Source: Gammaproteobacteria bacterium (GTDB taxonomy: Bacteria; Pseudomonadota; Gammaproteobacteria; SZUA-229). From it: 64,000 nt of DNA. The notes beneath the pieces were generated by a model. The model saw nothing but the letters and a program-made list of their open reading frames with translations, did not search any database and was not told where the DNA came from. Shown piece by piece: positions 3,701 to 43,881 of this stretch (positions within the stretch are counted from its first letter, which is position 1; the number at the start of each line of letters is the position of its first letter). The position numbers were made by a program, and so were the translations under genes. The DNA lies in the NCBI GenBank assembly GCA_041572275.1, contig JBFFSQ010000001.1:8238-72237 (forward strand), written 5' to 3'.

Positions 3701-3904
3701 GCCTGCACGAGCAAAAGCTTCTCGATCACCCAGTTTGATGATGAGTTGCTCTGCATCTTCTGGTGCAGCTGATAGAACCTCAACTTCCGCATCCAGCTCC
3801 TGATTGAGCGCAGAATTCAGCTCAATTTCACCCAAACCCAATGGATAGCCACGCCCTGGCAATAATGCTGCCATTACAGCCAAGCTTAAGGTTAGTTTGC
3901 GCAC
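725..3904 (-). CDS. fimV: FimV/HubP-family peptidoglycan-binding protein with LysM, one TM helix, a highly acidic cytoplasmic region and a C-terminal FimV motif
   Basis: The 1079-aa ORF reads GLGEIELNSALNQELDAEVEVL...LNDLKF...LLREYTLLLDPP near the N-terminus, matching P. aeruginosa FimV. It has a LysM-like block (DTLWGIASKH...VKRGYILRMPD), a single TM helix (ILTVIAGGFSALVLLVALVL), a very long D/E-rich tract and the C-terminal motif ELARAYIDMGDKEGARSILEEV. It sits between asd and truA as in Pseudomonas. The ORF track begins at a TTG (3964). I prefer the GTG at 3904, which gives the signal-peptide-like start MRKLTLSLAVMAALLP; the start codon is uncertain. Confidence 0.8.
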   Translation of the reverse strand: MRKLTLSLAVMAALLPGRGYPLGLGEIELNSALNQELDAEVEVLSAAPEDAEQLIIKLGDREAFARAGIDRPFMLTQLKFRVVTKNNKPYVKIYTQKPIREPFLSFLVEIDWPEGHLLREYTLLLDPPVYSGRSQPSQGAARDSGRPFIDPADQSVTNQSVTAQDDFGRPAEQMAYQPSAPAQTSQLASPAAQPVISSRDSRGQVTYQPLPQYAQSGGNYRVQSQDTLWGIASKHRPDSSVSVEQMMLALVRENPEAFIKENIHGVKRGYILRMPDRSTITSIDRQAALAQVKQHTSLWREYRQALTGAAPASAMESDQDVTSEGISEEVTEGRLSIVSASGDEGSESAGSGQDTNAEIRRLRNELLLAQEALESERLEKENLSSRLADLESRVQNALEMDDAELARLQQELQDARASAPIDTAEEPVSEEPVMEQPSEEPAIEEVTETEPVAEDVTADTTVTEEEVAPASEEEAVFVDETAEAGVEDVTAEPVKPVPAAPVSPADAPEFAQQQPKTFIEGLLDDPKILTVIAGGFSALVLLVALVLRRRRINKSEEWVELEPDTGGLEFETEGEQHNTLSFQTDEQDVSATTEVATPELDTSVAEAGLEEEPASELGDTVIGLAEAEEEKPASSDDDVISEADVYLAYGIYQQAEELLQNAIQQNPDRDDYRMKLLETHFAAKNADAFANLAEEVQQRKGSDKEFWDRVVVMGRELCPDQALFSGDVDLASDLDTDSLIPEKPEATDFELDVEDSALADDLDLGIEDTEAEQTAILSEPLSDDLAVDDLNLGDALEDIASEMDTPTAESDEEEMSFDLGDFADESETVASDSESESELELDDEFSLDFEASDLGFENTGAMQVETTEEDATTDELELDSDLDLALDMDEDTDNASVAEETDLGLDFDSDLGLDMESDTEEEADLALDTDLSLELDTDTEQATDLGLDLDTGDASDEDLALDTDLSLEADDSSDMEFETDLSLDTSAMAAMPEVAGDDEDFDISELSEDIDEVNTKLELARAYIDMGDKEGARSILEEVKLEGNGDQQSAADELLKEAS
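930..1700 (-). repeat. Imperfect in-frame tandem repeats encoding the acidic D-L-x-L-D repeat tract of FimV
   Basis: Nucleotide units of the form tccag..ccagatc..tc recur and encode DLGLDFDSDLGLDMESD / LALDTDLSLE-type repeats. The mirror-image Ser-rich ORF on the opposite strand (858..1745 +) is a by-product of these repeats. Confidence 0.5.
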
Positions 3905-4024
3905 CTGCTTTCCCCCACAGTCATTTTCCCCTTGGTGTCCTGAAACACGAAATGAAGGCGACAAAGACCCTCATTTCGGACACATTGCTAAGAATACACT
4001 TTAGTATGCATGTGTAACTATAGA

Positions 4025-11769: not shown

Positions 11770-11936
11770 GTCACATCCTCAGTTATAAAACAAAAACGAA
11801 TCTTAACAAATGTGAATGCAAGCGTCTTGCTACACAGTCATTTATTCCTGCGCCTGCCGCCGTTTCCCGCAACAACTTGTCAGGCAGGTCCATAAACCGA
11901 TATAGTGACGGCATAATAATTAAATGTAAAAACATT

Positions 11937-13034
11937 ATGCTTTTCACAACGCCGGAAATTCTTGTTGTTGACGACGAGGAACTCAATCGAGAAATCATGG
12001 CCTTACGCCTGGAAGCGAGCCATTACAGCCTTCGATTTGCCGTAAATGGCCAAAATGCTCTAGATGAAGTTGATAAGAAAAAACCGGACCTCATCCTGCT
12101 CGATATCATGATGCCTCAGATGTCAGGACTGCAGGTGCTCAATACCCTGCGCCAACGCTATTCTATGGTTGACCTGCCCATCATCATGGTCACTGCTCTT
12201 GATGAAGATCAGCGCGTGGTCAAAGCACTTGAACTGGGAGCCAATGATTATGTAACCAAACCCATCAACTTCCCGGTATTGATGGCACGCCTGCAAACGC
12301 AACTCAGCCTGAAACAGCTATCGACCATCAACCGAGAATTTCTAAGTACCGCCAGTCAGGACCTGCGCAAGCCACTGTCGCTTATCATGGACATCACCAG
12401 CCAGTCGCTTCATAAAGCCAGCACTGATCCATCCGCCAGGGCAGCTGACCTACTCAACAATCTGAACCTGATTGGTAAATCTGCCAGTTACATCAATAAT
12501 ATTACTGAATGCATACTGGATATGCAGACCTCTGGTTTTGGGCAATTACGCCTGACCAAAACTCCCATTAATCTGGAAAATCTGATTAATGAAACCCTGG
12601 AGAAATTCAAACACCGTGCGCTGGAAAAACATATCCGACTAAGCAGTTTACCATTGGATGAGAAGCTGGTGATTGAAGCTGATCATATCCGTATTGCCCA
12701 GGTACTGGATAATTATGTGGGCAATGCCATCAAATACGGCTCTAGTGGTGATAACGTTAGAATCATCGCTTCACACAGTGAAGACCAGGTTTGTATTGAA
12801 GTTGAAGATACCGGCCCAGGACTGACCGAACAGGACCTTGAAAACCTGTTCAGTGACAATACCACCCTGAGCAACAAGCCGACAGGCGGTGAAAGTAGCC
12901 ATGGACTGGGATTGCCATTATGTAAACAATTAATTGAATTGCATGATGGCGAGATAGGTGCCCATAACAATGATTCAGGTGGCAGTACCTTCTGGTTTAA
13001 ACTGCCCAAGTTCACATTAAGGACAGTGGATTAA
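11937..13034 (+). CDS. Hybrid response-regulator receiver / histidine-kinase-like protein: REC + degenerate HisKA (H-box His replaced by Gln) + HATPase_c
   Basis: The REC domain is intact (ILVVDDEE...PDLILLDIMMP...IIMVTA...YVTKP). The H-box reads FLSTASQDLRKPLS where the canonical box is SHELRTPL. N (LDNYVGNAIKYG), G1 (VEDTGPGL) and G2 (HGLGLPLCKQL) boxes are intact. I take the ATG at 11937 as the start; the track's 11877 is a TTG. Confidence 0.75.
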   Translation: MLFTTPEILVVDDEELNREIMALRLEASHYSLRFAVNGQNALDEVDKKKPDLILLDIMMPQMSGLQVLNTLRQRYSMVDLPIIMVTALDEDQRVVKALELGANDYVTKPINFPVLMARLQTQLSLKQLSTINREFLSTASQDLRKPLSLIMDITSQSLHKASTDPSARAADLLNNLNLIGKSASYINNITECILDMQTSGFGQLRLTKTPINLENLINETLEKFKHRALEKHIRLSSLPLDEKLVIEADHIRIAQVLDNYVGNAIKYGSSGDNVRIIASHSEDQVCIEVEDTGPGLTEQDLENLFSDNTTLSNKPTGGESSHGLGLPLCKQLIELHDGEIGAHNNDSGGSTFWFKLPKFTLRTVD

Positions 13035-14543: not shown

Positions 14544-15392
14544 ATGTTTGATTATTTAAAATCACTACCATTCTATGTGATACCACACCATGCCCTGTCC
14601 TGGCTGATTTTTCACCTGGCCCGGATTGAGTGGACTCCCATCAAAAAGCTCAGCCTGAATGTTTACCTGTCATTGCACAAGGTCAACATGCAGGAAGCAA
14701 AAGAAACTGATCCCTTTGCTTACAAAAACCTGAATGCCTTTTTCACCCGGGCCCTGAAACAGAATGCACGACCGATTGTCGCAGACGCATCAACACTAGC
14801 CTGCCCGGTCGACGGTACCGTAAGCCAGGCCCAGGCCATTGAATCAGGCCGAATATTTCAGGCTAAAGGCCATGATTACAGCTTGCTGGAACTGGTCGGT
14901 GGCATTGAAAAACTGGCGGCACCTTTCCAAAATGGCCAGTTTGCGACCCTTTATCTCTCGCCAAGAGATTATCATCGTATTCATATGCCCCTGACAGGTA
15001 AGCTGACTGACATGGTGTATGTACCCGGACGCCTGTTCAGTGTGGCTCCTCACACTGTCAACACGGTGCCACGCTTATTTGCCCGCAATGAACGCCTGGT
15101 TTGTGCATTTGATACCGAGGCCGGACCGATGATCATGGTTCTTGTTGGGGCGGTAAATGTCTCTGCCATTGATACCGTCTGGGCAGGCTCTGTCACACCA
15201 CCCAGTAAGCGTTCAATCATCCATACTGAATACACAGAAGGTGAAGTCCAGCTCAGCAAAGGCGCTGAAATGGGCCGCTTTAACCTCGGCTCCACCGTGA
15301 TCATGCTAATGGGGGAGAATGTCCAGCTGGATCAGGCCATACAGCATGACAATGGGGTCAAAATGGGGCAGGCTCTGGCCTCGTTTAAATAA
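14544..15392 (+). CDS. psd: Phosphatidylserine decarboxylase proenzyme
   Basis: 282 aa with the PSD core (YLSPRDYHRIHMP...YVPGRLFSV) and the LGST self-cleavage site (FNLGSTVIMLM). Confidence 0.9.
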   Translation: MFDYLKSLPFYVIPHHALSWLIFHLARIEWTPIKKLSLNVYLSLHKVNMQEAKETDPFAYKNLNAFFTRALKQNARPIVADASTLACPVDGTVSQAQAIESGRIFQAKGHDYSLLELVGGIEKLAAPFQNGQFATLYLSPRDYHRIHMPLTGKLTDMVYVPGRLFSVAPHTVNTVPRLFARNERLVCAFDTEAGPMIMVLVGAVNVSAIDTVWAGSVTPPSKRSIIHTEYTEGEVQLSKGAEMGRFNLGSTVIMLMGENVQLDQAIQHDNGVKMGQALASFK

Positions 15393-15883: not shown

Positions 15884-16873
15884 TTAACTACGTTGAAAAG
15901 AAAAAGCCAGGACTTCAGAAATAAGGGTTTTCGACAGCAACACCATTAGCAGACGATCGACGCCAATCGCCACACCTGAACAATCTGGCAGGCCAGCCCC
16001 TAATGCTGTGAGCATATATTCATCTATGGTTACCGGTTCCATACCCCGCTCAATCCGCTGCTGATTTTCCTGCTCAAACCTGGATCGCTGCTCCTCTGCA
16101 TCGGTTAACTCATAAAAGCCATTGGCCAGCTCCAGCTCACCCCAGAACAATTCAAAGCGATGCGCCACACGCGGATCATCTTCACTCACCCGCGCCAGTG
16201 CAGCCTGTGAAGCCGGATAATCGAAAACGAAAGTAAATCCCTGTTTAACAAAACTCGGCGCCACTCCCTGGGTCATCAACCAGTCCAGCCACATATCGCG
16301 ATCCAGCTCGTCCATACCCACAGGTATTTCAATACCCCGCTGTTGTGCGACCGCTTTGAGCTCACCCGCACTGGCTGCAAGGGGATCTATGTCCAATGCC
16401 TCAACAAATGCCTGCTGATAAGACAGCCGCCGGGGTATCTGTCCACTGATCGGTACTCCCAATTTACCAGACAAATAATTGAGTAATGCCTCCATATCAT
16501 CCATCAGCAGATGATGATCCATACCCAGTCGATACCACTCCAGCATGCTAAATTCTGGATTATGATATCGGCCCAGCTCATCATCACGAAACACCCTGCA
16601 CAGCTGAAAAATATCGCCGCTGCCGGATGCCAGCAGGCGCTTCATGAAAAACTCAGGAGATGTCTGTAGGTAAAGACGATCACTGAGGTATTGCGTAGAA
16701 AAACTCTGCAAATGAGGATCAGTAATAGTTGCCCGCGATAACACCGGCGTTTCCACTTCAAGAACATCCTGTTCAGCAAAAAAAGCCCGGATACCTTGCA
16801 GTAGCCGGGCCCTGAATTGCAACACCTCGAATGAGGCAGACGGTTGCCAATCAGTCTTTGACTCGGGAGACAT
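15884..16873 (-). CDS. epmA: Elongation factor P--(R)-beta-lysine ligase EpmA (PoxA/YjeA)
   Basis: Class II aaRS-like core ([28 protein letters not shown]...[46 protein letters not shown]). The start [14 protein letters not shown] aligns with E. coli EpmA MSETASWQPSAS. Confidence 0.85.
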
Positions 16874-17420
16874 ATTCACCACTACGGGTGTCAACTTTCA
16901 GCACTTCACCCTGTTCGATAAATAAAGGCACTTTAACGACGGCACCGGATTCCAGCGTAGCCGGCTTGGTTCCACCCTGAGCCGTATCACCCTTTAAGCC
17001 AGGGTCGGTCTCAGTCACAGTGAGCTCGACAAAATTGGGCGGTGATACTAACAACGGCTCACCATTCCACAGGGTAACTGTGCATAACTCCTGGCCTTTC
17101 AACCACTTAGCAGCATCTGTCATAGCCGCTTCACCCGCACCCACCTGCTCATAGGTGTTCGGATCCATGAAATACCAGAATTCACCGTCGTTGTAGGAAA
17201 ATTCCATATCTACATCCATCACATCCGCAGCTTCAGCTGATTCACCAGATTTGAAGGTCCGCTCAATAACACGACCGGTTTTCAGATTGCGCAGTTTTAC
17301 CCGATTAAAGGCCTGCCCCTTACCAGGCTTGACCAGTTCATTTTCAATGATGTTATAGGGGTCACCATCTAAAAGTAATTTAAGTCCGCCACGAAATTCA
17401 TTTGTACTGTATGATGCCAT
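16851..17420 (-). CDS. efp: Elongation factor P
   Basis: 189 aa beginning [22 protein letters not shown] and ending ...[11 protein letters not shown], near-identical in layout to E. coli EF-P. The true start (17420) is internal to the longer ORF in the track. The 3' end overlaps the epmA start by 23 nt. Confidence 0.93.
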
Positions 17421-17491
17421 CTGTTTTACCTTAGCCTGTCGGGCTTTACAGAATTTAAAAACAGCGCATATGATACGCGGTAAACCCTGAA

Positions 17492-18508
17492 ATGCCAAAA
17501 CCAGCAATCAATAACCTTCAGCACATCCCTGGCTGGCAACAACAACTGGCCCAGGCAGTTACCGATCCAGCAGAACTTCTAGAGCTGCTGCAGATTGAGC
17601 CAGAGCAATTCCCTGGTTTTTCCGAAGCCTGTCAGCATTTCTCACTCAAGGTCCCCCGTGACTATATTGCCAAAATGACCGTCGGCGATATTAACGACCC
17701 CCTGTTAAAACAGGTGATGGCAACGGCTCTGGAGCTAGAGCCAGCAACAGGCTATCACGCCGACCCAACGGGTGACCTCGATGCGATGCCAGTTCCGGGC
17801 CTGCTCCATAAATACCAGGGCCGTGCACTACTGATCACCACTGGCGCATGCGCCATTCACTGCCGCTATTGCTTCAGGCGTCACTTCCCTTATGCTGATA
17901 ACCACTCATCACACAACAACTGGCATCAGGCCATCCAGTACCTGGAACAACACACGGACATTAGCGAAATTATTCTCAGTGGTGGTGACCCGCTCGTTTT
18001 GTCAGATCACAAGCTCTCTGAACTGATCCATCAACTCAGCAATATTCCACATATTAGACGCCTTCGAATTCATAGCCGCTTACCCATTGTCTTACCTGAG
18101 CGCATCACCAATGAGCTCTGCCACATACTTTCACAGAATCGTTTGCGTACTAGCCTGGTTATCCACGCTAATCATGCACAGGAAATTACTGAAGCAGAAA
18201 CCCAGGTGCTGAACCGACTCAACGACGTCGGTATCACGCTGCTCAACCAAAGCGTCCTCCTGAAAGATATAAATGACTCATATCAAACACTTGTAGACCT
18301 CAGTGAGCGACTATATGAAGCTCGCGTCTTACCGTATTACCTACATGCTCTCGACCCGGTACAAGGTGCGGCACATTTTGACGTTAAGGAAAGCCATGCC
18401 ATGATGCTCATCAAGCAAATGCGTGCCGTACTACCAGGTTACCTGGTACCTCGATTAGTACGTGAAATACCCGGCAAAAACAGCAAAATTTCCGTAAATG
18501 AGCTATAA
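17492..18508 (+). CDS. epmB: EF-P beta-lysylation protein EpmB (lysine 2,3-aminomutase-like radical SAM, YjeK)
   Basis: Radical-SAM CxxxCxxC ([13 protein letters not shown]) in a KamA-family context. It is divergent from efp, as in E. coli. Confidence 0.9.
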
Positions 18509-18685: not shown

Positions 18686-20512
18686 ATGAAACTGAATATT
18701 CCAGAACAAGTTGAGCCGGGTAAGGATGATTTCCCTAATCATCCCCGCAAAGTCAAAAAATGGCTTACCGAATTAAAACAGGCCAATATGGGTGACTATA
18801 CCCGTCAGATTTATAATGGTCTGATGCAGCTGAATCGCCAGTCGATGCCCCCTAAATACCGACTCGAAAACCTGGAACAATTACGTGAACCCACACGTCA
18901 TATTTTTAGTCAACTGCATAAACATTTTGTAAACCGAACGCTGCCATTACCGGAAAAAAGCCTGAAAATAATCACTCTGAACCAGGCCGTACTGAATGAA
19001 ATTGCCACCGGTTATAAAATTCTTATTTTTGAAGCTGCCAACGATCTAAACAAGGTCGATAACAAAATCCTTCTGGTCGCCTGCGAACGGGCCCTGCATT
19101 ACTATGCAGAATACCTGCTCAAGTCCAGTCAAATTTACGCCAATATTCCGAATGCCCTGTGGTGGGATATTCACCGTATTTATGCTTATGCAGAAAGCAA
19201 AAAACTGCATTCAAAAAAAATCAAAGATTCAGAACACTCGCTTAAATCTGTTTCTGTGGAAGATTACTATAAGCTTATTCTGCTATTTTCTCTGTCACGA
19301 CCCAATGCATTACGCCAAAGCGATACTGAACGCGTATTCATGGCTATGCCTGAATGGATTAAATACACCAACCTAACCAGTCATCCAGTAGCAAACAAAC
19401 TCAATCAATACTTCTGCAGCAAACTGGACAGCGACATACCGCCTCATTGCCTGAGTAATGACGAAATTAAGTCCGGCAGCAATATTCGTGCACTTGAAAC
19501 AGGTAAATTGCTTGAGTATCTAAAAAAACAAATTACTCAGAATGTTGATTTAACTAATGCCACAACCATAGACAATCAGATTTCGCAGGAAACCCTGCGC
19601 ATGCTGATAACCACCTGGAGCCTGTGCACTAAACGCCGCTTTTCAAGAGCTGATAAAGCCTCTGATATAAAAGTAGCTATTGGACTGACATCAATCCATA
19701 ATGCGATCATTGATCAACAAAAAGCACCTGAACCGAAGCGTAGCAAAAGACCTCGTTCAACATTTTCACTGGAATCCATATCGGATAACGAACGAGCCAA
19801 AAAAGATATTTTTGCACAACAGGAACCAACCTTTTTAATCACTCATCCCGACATGAAAGCCAGTGAGAGTTCATCAGCAGGCGCATGGGATATGGTGGCA
19901 AAAGGTCGTGCCCTGACCGAAAGCTATGCCAGAGAACTCCAGGCACAGGATGATGAACTTGGCGAATTAAACAAAGAAGCACCTGATCTTCACTGGAAAA
20001 TCAGTAATGTAAGTGCAGGCGGCTACTGCTTACAGTGGAATTCTCAAACAACATCGAGAGCACAGGTTGGTGAACTTATTGGTATCCGGGAAAAAGAACC
20101 AGACCATAGCTATCAATGGCGGGTCGGTGTTATTCGCTGGATGCAATACTCACGTGAAAATGGCCTTGAAATTGGTGTTCAGGTACTTTCACCTAAAGTC
20201 GTGACATGCTCCGTTCGGCGTCTTGAACGCAAGAATGAGGAGCCATTTAACTGTCTTTTACTGCCCGGCATCAAACCGCTACAACAACCAGCTACATTAC
20301 TACTCCCGGCATATGCCTTTAAAAAAGGCGGCATGCTACAACTCCATGCCTATGAACGTGACATGGAAATTCAACTGGGCACAATACGAGAACATACAGG
20401 ATCATTTACACAATTTCAGTTTATACAAACTGATAACAAGGACGCACCTGAAGAAAATGACAAAAAACAGAGTTCCTCTGATGATTTCGACTCAATCTGG
20501 TCATCCCTTTAA
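18686..20512 (+). CDS. Large hypothetical protein (608 aa) with a C-terminal PilZ-like domain (NxSxGG motif); the N-terminal ~450 aa is unrecognised
   Basis: The C-terminal ~130 aa contain ...WKISNVSAGGYCLQW..., matching the PilZ (D/N)xSxGG motif, followed by an alternating hydrophobic beta-pattern. A possible RxxxR-type element (KRRFSRADK) lies about 130 aa upstream. No SD precedes the annotated ATG, so the start is uncertain. It lies 31 nt upstream of the FimX-like gene on the same strand. Confidence 0.55.
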   Translation: MKLNIPEQVEPGKDDFPNHPRKVKKWLTELKQANMGDYTRQIYNGLMQLNRQSMPPKYRLENLEQLREPTRHIFSQLHKHFVNRTLPLPEKSLKIITLNQAVLNEIATGYKILIFEAANDLNKVDNKILLVACERALHYYAEYLLKSSQIYANIPNALWWDIHRIYAYAESKKLHSKKIKDSEHSLKSVSVEDYYKLILLFSLSRPNALRQSDTERVFMAMPEWIKYTNLTSHPVANKLNQYFCSKLDSDIPPHCLSNDEIKSGSNIRALETGKLLEYLKKQITQNVDLTNATTIDNQISQETLRMLITTWSLCTKRRFSRADKASDIKVAIGLTSIHNAIIDQQKAPEPKRSKRPRSTFSLESISDNERAKKDIFAQQEPTFLITHPDMKASESSSAGAWDMVAKGRALTESYARELQAQDDELGELNKEAPDLHWKISNVSAGGYCLQWNSQTTSRAQVGELIGIREKEPDHSYQWRVGVIRWMQYSRENGLEIGVQVLSPKVVTCSVRRLERKNEEPFNCLLLPGIKPLQQPATLLLPAYAFKKGGMLQLHAYERDMEIQLGTIREHTGSFTQFQFIQTDNKDAPEENDKKQSSSDDFDSIWSSL

Positions 20513-20543
20513 ATGATAACAAACTAATTTTTCGGACTTTAAC

Positions 20544-22634
20544 GTGGCAACAGAAAATAAAGTTAATATTTTTATTATTGATGACTCCTTTAACAATGAA
20601 GAAAAGGTTGTAAAAATCATGCGCGCCGGTGGATATGCAGCCCACACTACTCGCGTTGAAGATGACGAAGACCTGATTGAGGCACTCAAAAAGAAACAAC
20701 CGGACATTCTACTCTATGCAGTGGGCATGGAACTGATCACACTGGAACAAACCATCGCCTGTCTTCAGGAACACGTATCCGAACCAATCCCGGTAATAGC
20801 AGTCAACCGCGCTAACCATGAAACTGATGTGGTTACAGCCATGCGTGCAGGCGCCAAGGATCTCAGTGCCTACAGCAACCCTACACATCTTGAACTTGTC
20901 ATCAAACGCGAAATCGATGCGCATAGAAGCATCAAAAAACTGTTTCAGGTTGAAATGTCCAACAAGGAAACAGAAAGACGCTGCGAGGCACTACTTGATT
21001 CTTCACGTGATGCTATAGCCTATATACACGAAGGAATGCATGTATATAGTAATCAGTCATATTTAGATCTATTTGGCTTTAATGAATTTGAAGAACTTGA
21101 AGGCATGCCCATCCTCGACATGGTTGGCATGAACGACCGTGATAGCTTTAAAACGTTTTTGCGTGAACATTGCAAAGCGGGCGCCTGTAATGCCAGCAAC
21201 CTCGAACTCAACCTGAGAAACCCGGACAGCACTGAGTTTAAAGGTATCATGGAGTTTTCGCCGGCCAGTATCGAAGGTGAACCTTGTATTCAAATTATCA
21301 TTCGGAACCAGGTTGACAATAAAGAACTCGAAAAACAAATTGCCCTGATGGGACAAAAAGATTCTGTTACCGGCCTATATAACCGTCAGTTTTATCTTGA
21401 CTCACTTACAAAAACCGTTGATTCAGCCAAACAGGGCAAACTCAAGGCATGTGCTTTGATGATCCAGCTGGATAACTACAAAGAAATCAAACAAAGTATG
21501 GGTGTTATTGTCAGCGACCAGTTTCTGAATGAAATTTCTCGCCAATTTGAAAACAGTATTGCTAAAAACGACGTCCTTGCACACTTTGACGGCAGTATAT
21601 TCTCTATCATTGCCATGGACCAAACAGCTGCGTCTATAGAGAACTATGCAAAAAAAATCAGCAAAAACTGTGACGACTTCATTGCTAACATAAAAGGTCA
21701 ATCGATCAATTCGACCTGCAAGATTGGCATCAGCATAATCGATGAGAACGCCCCAGACACAGATGAAATACTGCTACGTGCAGAACGTGCCATACAGGAA
21801 AGCAAAACCTCAGGTGCAGATAGTATCGTTGTATATCGACCCAAAGAAGGTGAGCTTACACAAAAAGAAATTGATGCACAGATCGTCAATGACCTGAAGG
21901 ATGCTGTCACTAACAATCGATTCTTACTGTATTTCCAGCCTGTCATCAGTTTACATGGTGACCCTGACGAGCGTTATGAGGTGTTTGTCCGCATGAAAGA
22001 TAAAGATAATAATATCCTCATGCCTTCAGATTTTCTGCCAGCTGCTGAACGCACCGGCATGTCAATGACCATAGATCGCTGGGTATTGTTAAACACTATT
22101 ACCACCCTGACAAAATTATGGAAACAGGGTAAACGCACAATTTTCTTTGTCCGGCTCTCAAGCACGTCATTGAAAGACAGCAACCTGATGACCTGGCTAA
22201 AAGAACAACTTAAAAAATTCAATGTTCCTAAAGGCAGTATAGTCTTCCAGGTCAAAGAAAGCGCCGCAGTTACCAGTCTTAAGTACACTGCTGAACTAGC
22301 CAAGCAACTGAAACAACTCAACTGTGGTTTTGCCCTGGATGACTTTGGCAAAGGCAACAACCCATTTGAGATACTTAAACACATACCGGTTGATTATCTG
22401 AAACTTGAGCGCTCATTTATGGAAAACATATCTGAAAGCAGCGAGAACCAGGATGCTATCAAGAAAATCACAGAAACTGCCATGGAAATGAACAAGTTCA
22501 CAATTGCCCAATGCGTTGAAGACGCCACCAGTCTGTCGGTACTCTGGGGCATGGGAATTAATTTCATCCAGGGCAATTTCCTCCAGGAACCCACTCCAGA
22601 TCTGGATTACGACTTCAGTTCAATGACCGGTTAG
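20544..22634 (+). CDS. FimX-like c-di-GMP receptor: degenerate REC - PAS - degenerate GGDEF - degenerate EAL
   Basis: 696 aa. The REC has Tyr at the phospho-acceptor position (PDILLYAVG). A PAS-like block follows (~130-250). The GGDEF is replaced by DGSIF (HFDGSIFSII). The EAL is replaced by EVF (ERYEVFVRM), while other EAL binding-site motifs are kept (DDFGKG, KLERSF, QGNF). The architecture equals P. aeruginosa/Xanthomonas FimX. Confidence 0.8.
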   Translation: MATENKVNIFIIDDSFNNEEKVVKIMRAGGYAAHTTRVEDDEDLIEALKKKQPDILLYAVGMELITLEQTIACLQEHVSEPIPVIAVNRANHETDVVTAMRAGAKDLSAYSNPTHLELVIKREIDAHRSIKKLFQVEMSNKETERRCEALLDSSRDAIAYIHEGMHVYSNQSYLDLFGFNEFEELEGMPILDMVGMNDRDSFKTFLREHCKAGACNASNLELNLRNPDSTEFKGIMEFSPASIEGEPCIQIIIRNQVDNKELEKQIALMGQKDSVTGLYNRQFYLDSLTKTVDSAKQGKLKACALMIQLDNYKEIKQSMGVIVSDQFLNEISRQFENSIAKNDVLAHFDGSIFSIIAMDQTAASIENYAKKISKNCDDFIANIKGQSINSTCKIGISIIDENAPDTDEILLRAERAIQESKTSGADSIVVYRPKEGELTQKEIDAQIVNDLKDAVTNNRFLLYFQPVISLHGDPDERYEVFVRMKDKDNNILMPSDFLPAAERTGMSMTIDRWVLLNTITTLTKLWKQGKRTIFFVRLSSTSLKDSNLMTWLKEQLKKFNVPKGSIVFQVKESAAVTSLKYTAELAKQLKQLNCGFALDDFGKGNNPFEILKHIPVDYLKLERSFMENISESSENQDAIKKITETAMEMNKFTIAQCVEDATSLSVLWGMGINFIQGNFLQEPTPDLDYDFSSMTG

Positions 22635-22668: not shown

Positions 22669-23172
22669 TCACACTGTTTTCGTCTGACGAAATTTCTCAG
22701 CAAACTGATCAGGAATTTCACCATTCGTTGCTAAATTAATGGCACTGGACTCCAGGTAAAAATTCACCATCACCATAATCAGCACGGGCATTATTGATAT
22801 GCGAATAAAAACTGTCTGCAATATTGATGTCATGTTGGGATCATCTACAGATAATGACAACAACCAGCCCAAACACATCAATACTAAGGTCAGACCATAT
22901 GAAATTAGCATCAAACGATAACGATGACAGGCAAGCTTCCAATGACCAAGAATAAACCAGTGGTCATACTTGTCCTTAGCTCTGCTCTGTAAACAGGTAT
23001 AAACCATCACAGCTAATGACAGCAACAATGGTAACAACATAGCTTTAAACCCGATATCAAGTGCAATAATGGCGGGTGTCATCAGTAAATGAAACAGCGC
23101 AAGATTCAGCATAAACAGATTATGCGGCAATTTGGCTTTAGATATTAACCCCGCATCTAAATCAACAATCAT
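22669..23172 (-). CDS. Hypothetical integral membrane protein (167 aa, about 4 TM)
   Basis: Hydrophobic segments only; no motif recognised. Confidence 0.4.
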   Translation of the reverse strand: MIVDLDAGLISKAKLPHNLFMLNLALFHLLMTPAIIALDIGFKAMLLPLLLSLAVMVYTCLQSRAKDKYDHWFILGHWKLACHRYRLMLISYGLTLVLMCLGWLLSLSVDDPNMTSILQTVFIRISIMPVLIMVMVNFYLESSAINLATNGEIPDQFAEKFRQTKTV

Positions 23173-23348
23173 TAATGACTCCTGGTAACGTAATCGCGTG
23201 CAGTGTCAGATATCGATAGAAGACCTAAAAACAACTATTAAAACACCCCACCCATCCTTTCAGCACTCCAGACCAATACAATCGATACTTATTCATCACG
23301 ATAATACAGGATATAATTGATTTTTCATCCATTGGCTCTGGTTCATAC

Positions 23349-24083
23349 ATGTTAGATTCACTCTCAGCCGTTCAGCTGCTACTGGCTGTGCTGATAATCA
23401 TCATCGCCTTTCTGGTGAGAGGCATTACAGGCTTCGGATCCGGACTCATTGCCATACCATTGCTGGCACTCATGCTCCCGCTATCCATTGTGGTTCCCAT
23501 GGTAGGGCTCCTCGACTACATCGCAGCTAATAGTCATGGCATCAAGCATCGTCAATCCATTAACTGGGAAAGCATCTTGCCACTCCTACCCTTTACCTTT
23601 ATCGGAGTGCTATCGGCACTGTACCTGTTTAAGACAGTTGATGCCGATATTCTGCGAAAAGCATTAGGGGGGTTTATTATTTTTTATGCACTGTATTCTT
23701 TATTTTCAACCGCCAGCAGCAAACAGGGCTCACGTCTCTGGGCTATTCCTGCGGGGAGCCTTGGAGGTTTCATCAGTACATTATTTGGGACAGGTGGCCC
23801 CTTCTATGTGCTGTACCTGAGAATCCGCCACCTTGACAAACAGGCATTCCGGGCCACTACAGCGATGATTTTTGTCATTGATGGCAGCAGCCGTATTATC
23901 GGCTATATTTTTTCTGGTTTTTATACTACCGAAACCCTGCTGCTTGTGGCGATAGCATTACCCATTATGATGATCGGAATGTACGTGGGTGGCCATATAC
24001 ACACTTCACTTAGCCAACAGGATTTTCAGCGTGGCATAGGCATTTTACTCATTGGCAGTGGGCTAGCCCTGCTTTTACAATAA
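23349..24083 (+). CDS. TauE/SafE (TSUP, DUF81) family membrane transporter
   Basis: 244 aa with two TSUP half-repeats carrying Gly-rich motifs (GITGFGSGLIAIPLL ... FGTGGPFYVLYL). Confidence 0.75.
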   Translation: MLDSLSAVQLLLAVLIIIIAFLVRGITGFGSGLIAIPLLALMLPLSIVVPMVGLLDYIAANSHGIKHRQSINWESILPLLPFTFIGVLSALYLFKTVDADILRKALGGFIIFYALYSLFSTASSKQGSRLWAIPAGSLGGFISTLFGTGGPFYVLYLRIRHLDKQAFRATTAMIFVIDGSSRIIGYIFSGFYTTETLLLVAIALPIMMIGMYVGGHIHTSLSQQDFQRGIGILLIGSGLALLLQ

Positions 24084-24182
24084 TCAATCCAAAAAAATCC
24101 AAAGCAGATGTTCTTAAAAAAATATGATATAAACAATTACACAACAGATCACCCCAGCAATTACCAGTTATAGGTAAGTATC

Positions 24183-24695
24183 ATGAAACATCTACTTAAA
24201 ATTGTCTCCATCTTTTCACTGCTCTACTTGTCTGGATGCTCAATGCATCACCCACAAAGTGCAGCAGAATTTCGCAAACTACTGCCTGAAAGTACATTTG
24301 GAGAAATTGAAAAATTCACTGTTAATCAACCTTTGCATAAAATCGGCAACGCTTTTAAAAAGAAAGCACCCGAGTGCCTTAACGTCACCATCAGAACAGA
24401 ATCCTGGGTAAACAACAGCTATCAAGTTTATAACACAACCTATAAGCCAACCGTAAAAGTCAGCACCAAAAAAGTCGAGTTACATATACAACAACATATT
24501 GACAACACTCTCAAAATATCCAAAGAACCTGAGGGCGGCTACTATATGATGGTTGTTGATGTTGTACCGATTAACAAAAAGAAATCACAAGTGACCATGT
24601 ACCGTGCTTCGTTTGGCAATGACCTCATTATTAAAAGCATCAAACGCTGGGCCAATGGTAAAACACGCGGCTGCCCCGACATGACGAAGAATTGA
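24183..24695 (+). CDS. Hypothetical lipoprotein (170 aa)
   Basis: Signal peptide with lipobox LSGC. It is Lys/Asn-rich with no recognised domain. Confidence 0.5.
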   Translation: MKHLLKIVSIFSLLYLSGCSMHHPQSAAEFRKLLPESTFGEIEKFTVNQPLHKIGNAFKKKAPECLNVTIRTESWVNNSYQVYNTTYKPTVKVSTKKVELHIQQHIDNTLKISKEPEGGYYMMVVDVVPINKKKSQVTMYRASFGNDLIIKSIKRWANGKTRGCPDMTKN

Positions 24696-24722
24696 TTCGT
24701 CTATTACTGAGAATTTAAACCT

Positions 24723-25193
24723 ATGACACGACTCATTGCTTTATTGTTAGCCGGCAGCCTTCTTATCGGCTGTTCAACACTGAAACCCTATCCAAACACA
24801 CTACAAAAGAACACCTTTGTAAGCATAAAAACCGATTCAGGCTCAATGCTCACTAACATTGTAGTTGCTGTTGATATATTTGATGTAGATGCGAACTGCA
24901 AGCTAACATATAAGGGTACAGTAGATCTGGACAAACCAGTAACTGAAGTTGGTCTGGCAACCGACAGAACCAGTTATTTAGGCTTTATATTTAAAACCAA
25001 AGGATTTTTTAGCTCATCAACCAGTAGCATGAGTTATTACACTTTACTCAAACCTCGCAAGAAATACCGCTACAATGTTAACGTGAGCTATGAAGATAAT
25101 ATCTATGATGTGGAAATTCGTGAAACTCGCTCTCGTAAACAGAAAGGCAAGGAAATCAACCGCAAAGAACTGAACAGTTGCCGCAGTTTATAA
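24723..25193 (+). CDS. Hypothetical lipoprotein (156 aa)
   Basis: Signal peptide with lipobox LIGC. It lies immediately downstream of the first lipoprotein. Confidence 0.5.
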   Translation: MTRLIALLLAGSLLIGCSTLKPYPNTLQKNTFVSIKTDSGSMLTNIVVAVDIFDVDANCKLTYKGTVDLDKPVTEVGLATDRTSYLGFIFKTKGFFSSSTSSMSYYTLLKPRKKYRYNVNVSYEDNIYDVEIRETRSRKQKGKEINRKELNSCRSL

Positions 25194-25209
25194 CAAACGA
25201 TTTAGCAGA

Positions 25210-25256
25210 AAAAATTGCAGTATTAAATCCAGTAACTGGATTTAATACTGCTTTTT
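25210..25256. terminator. Rho-independent, probably bidirectional terminator
   Basis: An A6 run, then gcagtattaaatcc / ggatttaatactgc (a perfect 14-bp stem with a 7-nt loop), then TTTTT. It sits between the convergent lipoprotein gene and the small membrane-protein gene. Confidence 0.6.
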
Positions 25257-25259
25257 ACA

Positions 25260-25481
25260 TCATACTATTTTTTTCCAGTTCCTGACAAACCAGCCTAACA
25301 CCACAATACCCACACCTATGGAAAGGCCGAGCTGATCAGCATCTTTATAATACATGCCGAATTTATCAACTCTGAATGCAAACAGGTGATAACTCGTTAT
25401 TGCGGCACCAAATACAAATAGAGCCGTTACCAGCAGTCTTAATAGCTGTTGTTGATCTGTGAAGAAAGTCTTAACTGTCAT
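25260..25481 (-). CDS. Hypothetical small membrane protein (73 aa, 2 TM)
   Basis: Two hydrophobic helices (LLVTALFVFGAAITSY; LSIGVGIVVLGWFV). Low confidence that it is real. Confidence 0.35.
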   Translation of the reverse strand: MTVKTFFTDQQQLLRLLVTALFVFGAAITSYHLFAFRVDKFGMYYKDADQLGLSIGVGIVVLGWFVRNWKKIV

Positions 25482-25654
25482 TGATCACTCCCTAATACTG
25501 TTAGATTAAATAATTATTAAAAACAGACAGTCATACTATCCCAACATTTACCAACTACTGAACTTGATATACTCAGAAATGTTAATTACTTCACTTATAA
25601 TAGTTTCTGAATTCAGAAACATTACTCTAAAGCTAAATTGCTGACAGAATCTGC

Positions 25655-26428
25655 TTATGATTTCACAACCGTTCCATCCCAGAATTGCTCATCAAATTTT
25701 TTCAGCTTATTGCTTCTAATCATCGAGCGAATTTCCTTAACATACGCCTTACCGCGAGACGAATATTTGATCAGACCTTCTGCCAGGCTATAACCGGCCA
25801 ACATGCTTTTCTTTTGGCGAAGATTAAAACGCATATTTCTTAAAGATGAATAAGCGCGGCTGATGTTGATGTTTTTTAGATATGAACGCACCGAGTCTAA
25901 AGTAGAGGCAAACTTCCTAACCTCATGTTTGGAACCCGCAGAACGTTGTGCAGGCACTATTCCACAGCCTTTCTTGAAACACCATTGACCAAAAAAATTA
26001 TTAGCCTGCTTAGCAAATCTGGAAGTACCCCAGGCCGACTCATTAGCTGATTGTGCCAGCGCTAATGATGGCGGCACATAATCAACAATTTTGTACAAGG
26101 TTTCCACGTTTTTCTTTGAGATAACATCTTTGGATTTGATCTCATATTCATCGGATACCTTGCGTATAAACGCTAGCTCTTCCGTTGTCAGCTTATTTCC
26201 TGCAGCCATCTTAAGTCGAATCTGCCTGATTTTACTGCGCTTAATCAGTATTTCCTTATTCGCTTGCTCAATCAATGGGTACATATACGCAAAGAAAGCG
26301 CGCTTTTTCTGTTTCACATCCTTCATCGCAGCGAAATCAGGTACTGCAGCTCCTGCATTCAACGACATCATAGTAAGGACAACGATAGCCAGGCCAAAAG
26401 ACCCGTTAAACTTGTTTATAATGCTCAT
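25655..26428 (-). CDS. bax: Bax-family protein (FlgJ-like glucosaminidase domain)
   Basis: 257 aa with a signal peptide. The glucosaminidase-type core (LALAQSANESAWGTSRFAKQANNFFGQW) resembles E. coli Bax. Confidence 0.7.
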   Translation of the reverse strand: MSIINKFNGSFGLAIVVLTMMSLNAGAAVPDFAAMKDVKQKKRAFFAYMYPLIEQANKEILIKRSKIRQIRLKMAAGNKLTTEELAFIRKVSDEYEIKSKDVISKKNVETLYKIVDYVPPSLALAQSANESAWGTSRFAKQANNFFGQWCFKKGCGIVPAQRSAGSKHEVRKFASTLDSVRSYLKNINISRAYSSLRNMRFNLRQKKSMLAGYSLAEGLIKYSSRGKAYVKEIRSMIRSNKLKKFDEQFWDGTVVKS

Positions 26429-29347: not shown

Positions 29348-31606
29348 TTAGCTTTTACGCAACACCTCAATACCATCGACTTTCTGGTAACCACGCGGCA
29401 GCTTAAAGCCACGCTTACCACGCTCACCTGCATGCTCGTCAACTTCATCAGCCTTCATGGTCTTATGCTTCTTACCTGCGTAGACCGTCAATTTCTCGCC
29501 ATCCTGAATAAGATCGATAGCACATATCCACTCTTCTGCAGATTTAAGTTTGGCAGGTGGAACATTTATAATTTTATTGCCTTTACCGCGAACCATTTGA
29601 GGCAGTTCTTCCAGAGCGGTGACCAGCATATGTCCTTCTGAACTCACCGCCACAATCCAGTCATCTTCCAGACTGCGAACTTTTACCGGCGGTAATACTT
29701 TTGCACCCTGGGGAACGTTGAGAAATGCTTTTCCGGCTTTATTTCTGGAATGTAAATCACCCAGTTTACATACAAAGCCATAACCGTAACTGGTCGAAAA
29801 CAGGTATAACTCATCCGGATTACCGATCAGTGCCGACACAAAGCCTGCTCCAGCCGGTGGATTAAATCGTCCCGTCAGAGGCTCTCCCTGTCCCCTGGCC
29901 GATGGCAGGGTATGTGCCTGCAAGGTATAAGCACGACCAGTACTATCGAGGAAGACTGCCAGTTGGTTCGATTTACCGGCGGCCGATGATTGTGGACCAT
30001 CGCCTGCTTTATAGTTGAGCTTATCGACATCGATGTCGTGACCTTTAGCCGCGCGAACCCAACCTTTCTGCGACAGCACCACAGTAATAGCTTCACTGGG
30101 TATCAAGGCCGTTTCATCCATCGCCTGAGCAGCCTCTCGACTAACAATGGGTGAACGACGCTTATCGCCATAGGCTTCAGCATCATCAAGAATTTCTTTT
30201 TTGATCAGTGTTTTCAACCGCTGATCAGAACTGAGCAGTTTTTCCAGCTGCGCTTTTTCCAGTGCCAGCTCTTCCTGTTCAGCACGAATTTTCATTTCTT
30301 CCAGACGTGCTAACTGACGTAGCTTGGTATCGAGAATATAATCCGCCTGCTCGTCTGACAGTTTAAATCGTTTAATCAACGCCGGTTTTGGCTTATCCGT
30401 TTCTCGAATAATCTTGATAACTTCATCGATATTCAGGAAAGCAATCAACAAACCTTCCAATAAATGCAAACGTTTGTTGACCTTATCCAGTCTCCAGTTC
30501 AAGCGGTTACGAACCGTCTGAATGCGATAACTTAACCATTCTTTTAATATCACCCGGATATTTTTAACCTGGGGACGACCATCGACACCAATCATGTTCA
30601 TATTGACACGATAGCTGCGTTCAAGGTCTGTAGTGGCAAACAAATGATTCATCAACTGTTCGGTATCCACTCGATTGGAGCGAGGAACAATCACCAGACG
30701 GGTTGGATTTTCATGATCTGATTCGTCACGTAAATCCTCCACCATTGGCAATTTCTTTGAGGTCATCTGCTGAGCAATCTGCTCCAGAATCTTGTTCCCA
30801 GATACTTGATAAGGCAAGGCGGTAATAATGATCTCACCATTATCTTTTTCGAATCTGGCACGGGCTCGAATACTGCCATTACCTTTGTTATAGATCGCAA
30901 GAATATCTTCACGCGAGGTAATAATTTCCGCTTCTGTCGGGTAATCTGGTCCTTGTATATGCTCACATAGTTCTTCGACCGTGGATTTCGGTTGATCCAG
31001 CAAACGTATACAGGCTGTAGCAACTTCTTTCAAATTATGCGGCGGTATATCAGTAGCCATACCCACTGCAATACCGGTCGAACCATTCAGCAGCACATTA
31101 GGTAAACGTGCGGGCAATGACCTGGGTTCTTCAAGCGTGCCATCAAAGTTTGGTATCCAGTCAACGGTGCCCTGGCCTAACTCCTGCAGTAAAACTTCTG
31201 CATACTTTGACAACTTGGATTCGGTATAACGCATAGCTGCAAATGATTTGGGGTCATCGGGCGAACCCCAGTTACCCTGCCCATCAACCAGTGGATAGCG
31301 ATAAGAAAAACTCTGCGCCATCAATACCATGGCCTCATAACATGCACTGTCACCATGGGGGTGAAACTTACCCAGCACATCACCCACCGTACGTGCCGAT
31401 TTCTTATATTTGGCACTGGCATTCAAGCCCAGCTCAGACATGGCATACACAATACGACGCTGCACCGGTTTTAAGCCGTCGCCAATAAACGGCAGCGCAC
31501 GATCGAGAATAACGTACATGGAATAATCCAGATACGCCTTCTCAGTAAAATGAGCTAACGGCTGTCTTTCAATACCTTCAAAATTCAAATCGTCTTGTTC
31601 GGACAT
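29348..31606 (-). CDS. parC: DNA topoisomerase IV subunit A
   Basis: 752 aa with a GyrA/ParC N-terminus ([28 protein letters not shown]). It lacks the GyrA C-terminal extension and lies adjacent to parE. Confidence 0.93.
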
Positions 31607-43509: not shown

Positions 43510-43881
43510 AGGAACCTCCTGATAAAATATTTTATTATTCAATATTGCTATTGAGTCTATATCAAATTAGCTCGAAAACAAGAAATTACACCGACGCTGG
43601 AAAATTTCATTACCGGCTTTCCTGATTGTTTTTTTGTTATCATTTAAATTGCGATTCACTCATGCGAAACATTATGAATATGCTCTGAATGCTCTCACTC
43701 AATTGACATATATGATTTAAGGCTTTCATCCTTTAGAATTACTCGATATGCGTCATGTGAACAAGCCTTCACACGATACTACGCAGCACACTGACTTATC
43801 ATCGAATCAGTAATGATCTGCATATAATTAATTCAATGTCCGATTAACTTTATAGCTTGCTTATGGGTAAAATATCCCAAT

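What the first reader, a model, noticed from the sequence alone, without database searches (positions are those of the whole stretch)
20544..22634. FimX-like receptor in which REC, GGDEF and EAL are all predicted to be catalytically dead
All of the following are read directly from the translation. The REC phospho-acceptor position is Tyr (PDILLY). The GGDEF signature is DGSIF. The EAL signature is EVF. The EAL c-di-GMP-contacting motifs are kept (DDFGKG, KLERSF, QGNF). This is the FimX solution: a high-affinity c-di-GMP sensor with no enzymatic turnover. The protein is chromosomal and paired with an unrecognised PilZ-like protein rather than sitting in a pil cluster.
Basis: partly seen in the sequence, partly recalled or inferred. 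Interest (0 to 1): 0.55.

Follow-up and report, generated by a model that had tools for sequence, protein, structure and literature searches.

The report
Ordinary fimW–fimX c-di-GMP receptor pair
This gene encodes an ortholog of FimX, a well-studied enzymatically dead c-di-GMP receptor that controls type IV pili, and the "unrecognised PilZ-like" gene beside it is FimW, its usual neighbour in Pseudomonas, so the locus is a routine member of a known system.

Summary
ORF 20544-22634 (+, 696 aa) is REC-PAS-GGDEF-EAL, and every quoted motif is at the stated place: Tyr58 replaces the phospho-acceptor Asp, DGSIF replaces GGDEF, EVF replaces EAL.

The protein aligns end to end with Pseudomonas FimX (35% identity, E=4e-147). 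FimX is its best solved-structure match (E=2.5e-77). Relatives 66-72% identical are already named "multidomain signaling protein FimX".

Compared with active E. coli PdeL, three essential EAL residues are lost (N to R537, E to Q569, E to Q656). Unlike P. aeruginosa FimX, the DD of DDFG is kept.

c-di-GMP binding is predicted, not shown. Two aromatic ligand contacts of PaFimX are replaced (F652 to Cys, Y673 to Asn), and Acinetobacter baylyi FimX does not bind c-di-GMP.

Verdict: a new member of a known kind, of low interest.

The parts
18686..20512 (+). fimW: a 608-aa PilZ-type c-di-GMP-binding protein with a helical N-terminal domain and a C-terminal PilZ barrel
19634..19648 (+). FimW RxxxR motif (R317-R-F-S-R321)
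   Evidence: R317 and R321 are invariant in 69 diverse family members of 26-60% identity. They align with RTFQR of Pseudomonas FimW. Translation checked.
20006..20023 (+). FimW (D/N)xSxxG motif (N441-V-S-A-G-G446)
   Evidence: S443 is nearly invariant (at least 90%) and G446 is invariant in alignment A1. The motif aligns with NHSPGG of Pseudomonas FimW. Translation checked.
20513..20543 (+). 31-bp fimW-fimX spacer, which implies a likely operon
   Evidence: Sequence read. The scan found no + strand terminator-like site at the end of fimW or in the spacer. Equally short gaps occur in relatives L083 (28 bp) and L084 (15 bp).
20544..22634 (+). fimX: a 696-aa REC-PAS-GGDEF-EAL protein
   Evidence: Domains. 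Best solved-structure match is PaFimX 4j40, E=2.5e-77. It is 35% identical end to end to Pseudomonas FimX, E=4e-147.
20568..20861 (+). Pseudo-receiver (REC) domain, aa 9-106. D13-D14 are kept and Tyr58 (20715-20717) replaces the phospho-acceptor Asp
   Evidence: Tyr58 is present in all 118 homologs that have a residue there.
20982..21191 (+). PAS domain (aa 147-216, Pfam core)
   Evidence: It aligns with the PaFimX PAS region.
21360..21818 (+). Degenerate GGDEF domain, aa 273-425. The signature is DGSIF at 21588-21602
   Evidence: DGSIF aligns with GGEEF of E. coli DgcZ and with GDSIF of PaFimX.
21888..22592 (+). Degenerate EAL domain, aa 449-683. Kept: EVFVR (21978-21992), DDFGKG (22338-22355), K620. 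Lost: N to R537 (22152-22154), E to Q569 (22248-22250), E to Q656 (22509-22511)
   Evidence: Alignment with active E. coli PdeL and with PaFimX. Coordinates checked.

Best explanation
The locus is a fimW-fimX operon of an uncultured marine gammaproteobacterium.

FimX is a four-domain scaffold:
- Its receiver cannot be phosphorylated (Tyr58).
- Its GGDEF domain cannot make c-di-GMP (DGSIF).
- Its EAL domain cannot hydrolyse c-di-GMP, because a metal-binding Asn, a metal-binding Glu and the general-base Glu are replaced by Arg537, Gln569 and Gln656.
- The EAL domain keeps the E-x-hydrophobic-x-R and DRW substrate-binding core.

By analogy with Pseudomonas and Xanthomonas FimX, I infer that the EAL domain acts as a c-di-GMP receptor. 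In its ligand-bound state it would engage the type IV pilus extension ATPase PilB, directly or through PilZ, and help place or activate it at the pole. FimW, a PilZ-type c-di-GMP binder encoded immediately upstream, would be a second c-di-GMP input to the same machine.

Shown here: domain architecture, residue substitutions, orthology, synteny and the PilZ fold of FimW. Inferred: c-di-GMP binding, lack of enzymatic turnover, and the link to type IV pili.
For: - Architecture.
- FimX is the best solved-structure match (E=2.5e-77). The best non-FimX chain, PA0861, scores 1.3e-53.
- End-to-end alignment with Pseudomonas FimX, including the shared C-terminal DYDF(S/T)S tail.
- Substitutions shared with PaFimX at the same columns: Asn to a basic residue (H in Pa, R here), ExxE to QxxE, and loss of the first Glu of EGVE.
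- Relatives 66-72% identical are named 'multidomain signaling protein FimX' by IMG and NCBI.
- FimW family assignment and PilZ fold.
- fimW lies directly upstream of fimX in 79 of 80 Pseudomonas loci and in relatives L083 and L084.
- Wider synteny with Pseudomonas: psd upstream and parC downstream.
- A FimV homolog lies in the same window.
- The degenerate pattern and the EAL domain are strongly conserved in 120 homologs.
- Literature on FimX and FimW function: PMC11656802, PMC12564702, PMC12533971.
Against: - No biochemical data exist for this protein.
- Two aromatic c-di-GMP contacts of PaFimX are replaced: F652 by Cys657 and Y673 by Asn678.
- A. baylyi FimX (EVT motif) binds neither c-di-GMP nor GTP and works through Pil-Chp instead.
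- Both Asp of DDFG, K620 and E572 are kept, so the site is less degenerate than in PaFimX (7 of 10 canonical residues by my count against 4 of 10 reported for PaFimX). Residual metal binding or weak turnover cannot be excluded.
- No pilB, pilZ or pilT gene lies in the 64-kb window, so the pilus link rests on homology and on FimV.
Confidence: 0.75

Rival explanations
1. The protein is a FimX ortholog that has lost c-di-GMP sensing. It would act as a ligand-independent scaffold in the Pil-Chp pathway or at the pole, as reported for Acinetobacter baylyi FimX.
For: The ligand-stacking residues F652 and Y673 of PaFimX are Cys657 and Asn678 here, and are conserved as such in the clade. A. baylyi FimX shows that this family can drop c-di-GMP binding.
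Against: E479, R483 and D511 are (near-)invariant, and the third motif residue stays hydrophobic (F, against T in A. baylyi). The EAL domain is the most conserved part of the protein, at 78% mean identity. The partner FimW keeps intact PilZ c-di-GMP motifs.
Confidence: 0.15
2. The protein is a weakly active c-di-GMP phosphodiesterase, not a pure receptor.
For: D599-D600, K620, E572, E479 and Q676 are retained. Most close relatives also keep the first Glu of ExxE: E in 106 of 120. An early study reported weak PDE activity for full-length PaFimX, which is more degenerate (cited in PMC3527489).
Against: The Asn equivalent to PdeL N200 is K or R in all 120 homologs. The Glu equivalent to PdeL E319 is Gln in 118 of 120. 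From established mutagenesis of RocR and TBD1265, which is my own knowledge, loss of either residue abolishes activity. The window protein also has Q569. Later work found no PDE activity for PaFimX.
Confidence: 0.07
3. The fimW-fimX pair in this lineage regulates a polar machine other than the type IVa pilus, such as MSHA or Tad pili, type II secretion or the flagellum.
For: No pil genes lie in the window. FimV/HubP-type hubs organise several polar systems (my own knowledge).
Against: Every characterised FimX or FimW homolog acts on type IV pili. Synteny and orthology with Pseudomonas are clear.
Confidence: 0.08

Closest known systems
Pseudomonas aeruginosa FimX (PA4959; PDB 4j40, 3hv8, 3hv9, 3hva)
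   Same: - REC-PAS-GGDEF-EAL architecture and nearly the same length (696 vs 691 aa).
- 35% identity end to end.
- Receiver without a phospho-acceptor Asp.
- xxSIF in place of GGDEF.
- EV(L/F)xR motif.
- The same catalytic columns are lost (Asn, first Glu of ExxE, first Glu of EGVE).
- C-terminal DYDFSS tail.
- fimW immediately upstream, psd and parC nearby, and no pil cluster.
   Different: - The window protein keeps DDFGKG, where PaFimX has SQFGCS.
- It has Tyr rather than Ala at the acceptor position.
- It replaces ligand contacts F652 and Y673 with Cys and Asn, and has KLE instead of KID.
- epmA-efp-epmB are inserted between psd and fimW.
Pseudomonas aeruginosa FimW (PA4958)
   Same: - Same length (608 vs 607 aa).
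- Collinear homology, E=4e-78.
- Pfam FimW_N and FimW_C.
- RxxxR and NxSxxG motifs, and the C-terminal FDS(I/L)W(S/K)SL tail.
- Position directly upstream of fimX.
   Different: Only 25% identity. The low-complexity linker between RxxxR and the PilZ barrel (about aa 345-430, low pLDDT) differs in sequence.
Xanthomonas citri FimX (PDB 4f3h, 4f48, 4foj) in the PilB-PilZ-FimX complex
   Same: A degenerate GGDEF-EAL c-di-GMP receptor for type IV pili. Its EAL domain matches the window protein at E about 1e-40 to 1e-42.
   Different: It is a more distant match than PaFimX. According to the literature it keeps a canonical EAL motif and acts through PilZ rather than directly on PilB. Adjacency to fimW was not examined here.
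Acinetobacter baylyi FimX
   Same: Same four-domain layout. The receiver lacks the acceptor Asp but keeps the DD pair.
   Different: It has an EVT motif, binds neither c-di-GMP nor GTP, and controls pilus localisation through ChpA. The window protein has EVF and a far better conserved EAL core.
LapD-type degenerate GGDEF-EAL receptors
   Same: An inactive GGDEF-EAL protein that uses the EAL domain as a c-di-GMP receptor. The NCBIfam LapD model hits at E=1.4e-40, far below its cutoff.
   Different: LapD is a membrane protein with HAMP and periplasmic domains and a different output (LapG). It has no REC-PAS module and no FimW partner.

Membership tests
FimX | REC-PAS-GGDEF-EAL four-domain architecture, about 690 aa | tested here: met
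   Pfam domains at 9-106, 147-216, 273-425 and 449-683 in a 696-aa protein.
FimX | Full-length collinear homology to experimentally studied FimX, closer than to other GGDEF-EAL proteins | tested here: met
   35% identity over 1-693 vs 1-688, E=4e-147. The PDB ranking puts FimX chains first (2.5e-77), ahead of PA0861 (1.3e-53).
FimX | Receiver lacks the phospho-acceptor Asp but keeps the N-terminal acidic pair | tested here: met
   Tyr58 aligns with the Asp of NarL and YycF, and D13-D14 are kept. The family trait is described in PMC12139848.
FimX | Degenerate GGDEF signature (GDSIF type) | tested here: met
   DGSIF aligns with GDSIF of PaFimX and with GGEEF of DgcZ.
FimX | EAL domain keeps E-x-L-x-R but lacks catalytic residues | tested here: met
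   EVFVR is kept. N200, E232 and E319 of PdeL correspond to R537, Q569 and Q656. The DD pair is retained, unlike in PaFimX.
FimX | Residues that contact c-di-GMP in PaFimX (L477, R479, D507, F652, E654, Y673) | tested here: inconclusive
   The window has F481, R483, D511, C657, E659 and N678. That is three identical, one conservative and two aromatic contacts lost.
FimX | [quoted passage not shown] | not testable with these tools
   Needs ITC or DRaCALA and enzyme assays.
FimX | Interaction with PilB or PilZ and control of type IV pilus extension or twitching | not testable with these tools
   No pilB or pilZ gene lies in the window. Only a FimV homolog is present, at 725-3964.
FimX | Genomic pairing with fimW (Pseudomonas arrangement) | tested here: met
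   FimW lies 31 bp upstream. The pair is found in 79 of 80 Pseudomonas loci and in L083 and L084.
FimW | Pfam FimW_N (PF27104) plus FimW_C (PF27125) | tested here: met
   Precomputed hits on the identical protein P0001. The local Pfam copy lacks these models and returned nothing.
FimW | Homology to Pseudomonas FimW | tested here: met
   E=4e-78, 25% identity, residues 20-608 vs 27-607.
FimW | PilZ c-di-GMP motifs RxxxR and (D/N)xSxxG | tested here: met
   R317, R321 and G446 are invariant and S443 is nearly invariant (at least 90%) across 69 members. Both motifs (R317..R321 and N441-x-S443-x-x-G446) are shared with Pseudomonas FimW.
FimW | PilZ beta-barrel fold in the C-terminal domain | tested here: met
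Active EAL phosphodiesterase | Complete set of metal-binding and general-base residues (PdeL E141, N200, E232, D262, D263, K283, E319) | tested here: not met
   N200 is R537, E232 is Q569 and E319 is Q656. K or R at the Asn column and Q at the E319 column are fixed across the clade.
Active GGDEF diguanylate cyclase | GG(D/E)EF active-site loop | tested here: not met
   DGSIF aligns with GGEEF of DgcZ. The DgcZ residues N173/D174 in VND and H178 in GHxxGD align with K, Q and V.
Phospho-accepting response regulator | Conserved Asp at the end of beta-3, plus Thr/Ser and Lys | tested here: not met
   Asp is Tyr58, the Thr position is Asn88, and the Lys position is not conserved.

The most novel reading that the evidence does not exclude
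This marine clade may be a distinct FimX subtype. Its EAL pocket keeps the full DDFG metal pair and, in most members, the ExxE Glu. It fixes a Lys or Arg in place of the metal-binding Asn and a Gln in place of the general-base Glu, and it swaps two aromatic ligand contacts for Cys and Asn. This could be a natural 'substrate-trap' site that binds c-di-GMP in a different, possibly cation-independent, mode, or that prefers another ligand such as pGpG or another cyclic dinucleotide. The invariant Tyr58 could serve as a non-canonical regulatory site.
Probability: 0.1. Interest if true: 0.4.

Novelty: new member of a known kind. Interest (0 to 1): 0.12.

Why it matters
It matters little beyond annotation. 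The result shows that the fimW-fimX module, studied almost only in Pseudomonas, is conserved with its flanking synteny in uncultured marine, vent and symbiont gammaproteobacteria. The FimW family is also large: 3,270 50%-identity cluster representatives match at E<=0.001.

The clade offers a natural sequence variant of the FimX EAL pocket, with DD kept, Asn to Lys/Arg and Glu to Gln. That variant could help structural work on how degenerate EAL domains bind c-di-GMP without hydrolysing it. The discovery claimed by the finding, a dead triple-domain receptor with an odd partner, is already textbook for FimX.

Tried and rejected
- The local Pfam, NCBIfam and PDB sequence searches of the upstream protein returned nothing. 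This reflects the age of the local libraries. Precomputed Pfam hits give FimW_N and FimW_C.
- An exact look-up of the FimX protein found no record, although an identical cluster representative exists (P0128).
I used the PaFimX fragment recovered from the PDB alignment instead. That returned only Pseudomonadaceae loci, so gene-pair conservation outside Pseudomonas rests on two relatives and on matching contig lengths.
- The organism could not be named. Exact look-ups of nine housekeeping proteins carry no source names, and only MAG or SRA record identifiers were obtained.
- The Laventie 2019 and Navarro 2009 papers are not held.
- The promoter and terminator scan was uninformative.
- No Rfam family, and so no c-di-GMP riboswitch, is present in the window.
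- I considered and rejected an active PDE, an active DGC and a true response regulator (see the membership tests).
- I considered LapD-type receptors and rejected them because the architecture and gene context differ.
Full report
**1. Observation**

The ORF is real and has exactly the stated coordinates: 20544-22634 on the + strand, 696 aa, GTG start. The start is supported by homology. The N-terminus MATENK-VNIFIIDDS aligns from residue 1 with MAIEKKTIRLLILEDS of Pseudomonas FimX.

Pfam finds four domains:

| Domain | Residues | E-value |
|---|---|---|
| Response_reg | 9-106 | 31 bits, just above cutoff |
| PAS | 147-216 | not noted |
| GGDEF | 273-425 | 1.3e-24 |
| EAL | 449-683 | 1.4e-57 |

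**2. Are the motif positions correctly assigned?**

- REC. In phmmer alignments to solved receivers, Tyr58 aligns with the Asp of NarL (PDLILLDLNMP) and of YycF. The acidic pair D13-D14 is retained. The conserved Thr position is Asn88, and the conserved Lys is not recognisable.
- GGDEF. Aligned with the active E. coli cyclase DgcZ, DGSIF falls on GGEEF. The DgcZ residues in VND and GHxxGD correspond to K, Q and V. The same column is GDSIF in P. aeruginosa FimX.
- EAL. The table below compares the window protein with the active E. coli phosphodiesterase PdeL and with PaFimX.

| PdeL residue | Window | PaFimX | Status in window |
|---|---|---|---|
| E141 | E479 | kept | kept |
| R145 | R483 | kept | kept |
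| E164 | E502 | K | kept |
| N200 | R537 | H | lost |
| E232 | Q569 | Q | lost |
| E235 | E572 | E | kept |
| D262, D263 | D599, D600 | S, Q | kept |
| K283 | K620 | kept | kept |
| D285 | E622 | D | changed |
| E319 | Q656 | P | lost |
| E322 | E659 | E | kept |
| Q339 | Q676 | kept | kept |

Three residues are missing. From established mutagenesis of RocR and TBD1265, which is my own knowledge and was not tested here, each of them is individually essential. Loss of PDE activity is therefore a sound prediction. The site is nevertheless less degenerate than that of PaFimX, which retains 4 of 10 canonical residues (PMC3527489). The window protein retains about 7 of 10 by my count.

**3. More than chance?**

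The degenerate state is conserved in 120 homologs of 61-100% identity:

- Tyr58 is present in all 118 sequences with a residue at that position.
- The Asn column is K or R in all 120.
- The general-base column is Q in 118.
- E479 and D511 are invariant, and R483 is R in 119 of 120.
- QGNF is present in 117.
- The EAL domain is the most conserved segment (mean 78% identity), and the pseudo-receiver is at 71%.

This pattern indicates a maintained, functional design rather than decay.

**4. What it is**

The best solved-structure match is the GGDEF-EAL fragment of P. aeruginosa FimX (4j40, E=2.5e-77). Other FimX chains follow. The first non-FimX protein, PA0861, scores 1.3e-53.

I rebuilt the 4j40 sequence from that alignment and used it to scan one genome per species, which returned 80 Pseudomonadaceae loci. 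In P. paraeruginosa (L003) the gene order is psd, a 607-aa gene, fimX (691 aa), a serB-like gene and others, then parC. Full-length BLASTP of the window protein against this FimX gives 35% identity over 1-693 vs 1-688, E=4e-147. The match includes the shared C-terminal DYDFSS tail.

Several homologs 66-72% identical to the window protein are already named 'multidomain signaling protein FimX' by IMG and NCBI.

**5. The neighbour**

The upstream ORF (18686-20512, 608 aa) had no hit in the local Pfam, NCBIfam or PDB sequence libraries. However, the identical database protein carries the newer Pfam families PF27104 FimW_N and PF27125 FimW_C. Relatives are named 'cyclic-di-GMP-binding protein' or 'PilZ domain-containing protein'.

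Further evidence that it is FimW:

- It aligns with the Pseudomonas gene upstream of fimX over 20-608 vs 27-607 (25% identity, E=4e-78).
- The PilZ-type motifs RxxxR (R317, R321) and (D/N)xSxxG (N441, S443, G446) are shared with Pseudomonas FimW. R317, R321 and G446 are invariant and S443 nearly invariant in 69 members of 26-60% identity.
- An AlphaFold2 model (pLDDT 86.7, pTM 0.83) shows a helical N-terminal domain, a disordered linker (about 345-430) and a C-terminal beta-barrel.
- The family is large: 3,270 50%-identity cluster representatives match at E<=0.001.

**6. Gene context**

- fimW lies directly upstream of fimX, on the same strand, in 79 of 80 Pseudomonas loci. The single exception is a contig that ends 156 bp before fimX. 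psd is upstream in 78 loci.
- In the window the order is psd (14544-15392), epmA, efp, epmB, fimW, fimX, then parC (29348-31606) and parE.
- The same epmA-efp-epmB-fimW-fimX-...-parC order occurs in a siboglinid tubeworm endosymbiont MAG (L083) and in a JGI metagenome contig (L084).
- The fimW-fimX gap is 31 bp, with no terminator-like site, so the two genes are probably co-transcribed.
- Neither here nor in Pseudomonas is the pair inside a pil cluster.
- A FimV homolog (725-3964, FimV_N plus TPR) next to asd-leuBDC lies in the same window. This is consistent with a Pseudomonas-like polar pilus apparatus, but no pilB, pilZ or pilT gene is within the 64 kb.

**7. Mechanism**

Shown here: the three 'enzymatic' domains lack residues required for phosphotransfer, cyclase and phosphodiesterase chemistry, while the EAL substrate-binding core (FQPV, E-V-F-x-R, DRW, QG) is kept and highly conserved.

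Inferred from the family: the EAL domain binds c-di-GMP without turnover. In P. aeruginosa the Kd is about 0.1-0.2 uM, and binding is needed for interaction with the extension ATPase PilB, for polar localisation and for normal pilus extension. In Xanthomonas the link runs through PilZ. FimW would give a second, PilZ-type c-di-GMP input.

**8. Caveats**

The published c-di-GMP contacts of PaFimX are L477, R479, D507, F652, E654 and Y673. They map to F481, R483, D511, C657, E659 and N678, so two aromatic contacts are gone.

A. baylyi FimX, with EVT, binds neither c-di-GMP nor GTP. This shows that family membership does not guarantee ligand binding.

The retained DD pair leaves room for metal binding. 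I put the c-di-GMP-independent scaffold rival at about 0.15 and residual PDE activity at about 0.07.

**9. Novelty and verdict**

The triple degeneracy, the FimX identity and the PilZ-type neighbour are all established features of a known family, and close relatives are already annotated as such. What is particular to this clade is modest: DDFG is retained, Lys/Arg and Gln are fixed at two catalytic columns, Tyr is fixed at the acceptor position, and two ligand contacts are altered.

This is a new member of a known kind, and interest is low.

Noticed in passing
window 725-3964 (-): A 1079-aa FimV-like polar hub protein (Pfam FimV_N plus TPR) lies next to asd-leuB-leuD-leuC, the arrangement I recall for Pseudomonas (from memory, not checked here). 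It is the only other pilus-associated gene seen in the window.
   Followed up: partly
window 53126-55804 (-): A class-I adenylate cyclase (Adenyl_cycl_N plus Adenylate_cycl). cAMP signalling is tied to type IV pilus control in Pseudomonas, but no link was tested here.
   Followed up: no
window 11877-13034 (+): A 385-aa protein with a receiver domain followed by HATPase_c and no HisKA hit. It is conserved at the same position in relative L083.
   Followed up: no
window 22669-25193: Three ORFs with no family hit lie just downstream of fimX: a 167-aa membrane protein (22669-23172, -) and two lipoprotein-like ORFs (24183-24695 and 24723-25193, +). The latter two fall in the lowest-GC bin of the window (24001-26000, GC 0.38). 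This segment differs in relatives L083 and L084, so it is a variable spot between fimX and parC.
   Followed up: partly
window 42382-43542 (-): A TraF_2-family ORF (F-plasmid transfer TraF-like) sits in an otherwise housekeeping chromosomal stretch between the mobA/mobB/moeA genes and lptF/lptG.
   Followed up: no
window 16851-17507 (-): The listed efp ORF is extended to an upstream TTG and overlaps epmA (15884-16894). The true start is probably the internal ATG giving MASYSTNEF..., which matches the 187-190 aa EF-P of relatives.
   Followed up: partly
window 18686-20512, FimW residues 1-345: The FimW N-terminal domain is confidently modelled as an all-helical repeat. Its only structural matches are designed repeat proteins and spectrin-like bundles, so its function is unknown.
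   Followed up: partly
window 1-64000: No Rfam family reaches its gathering score anywhere in the window, so there is no c-di-GMP riboswitch, tRNA or known sRNA.
   Followed up: yes
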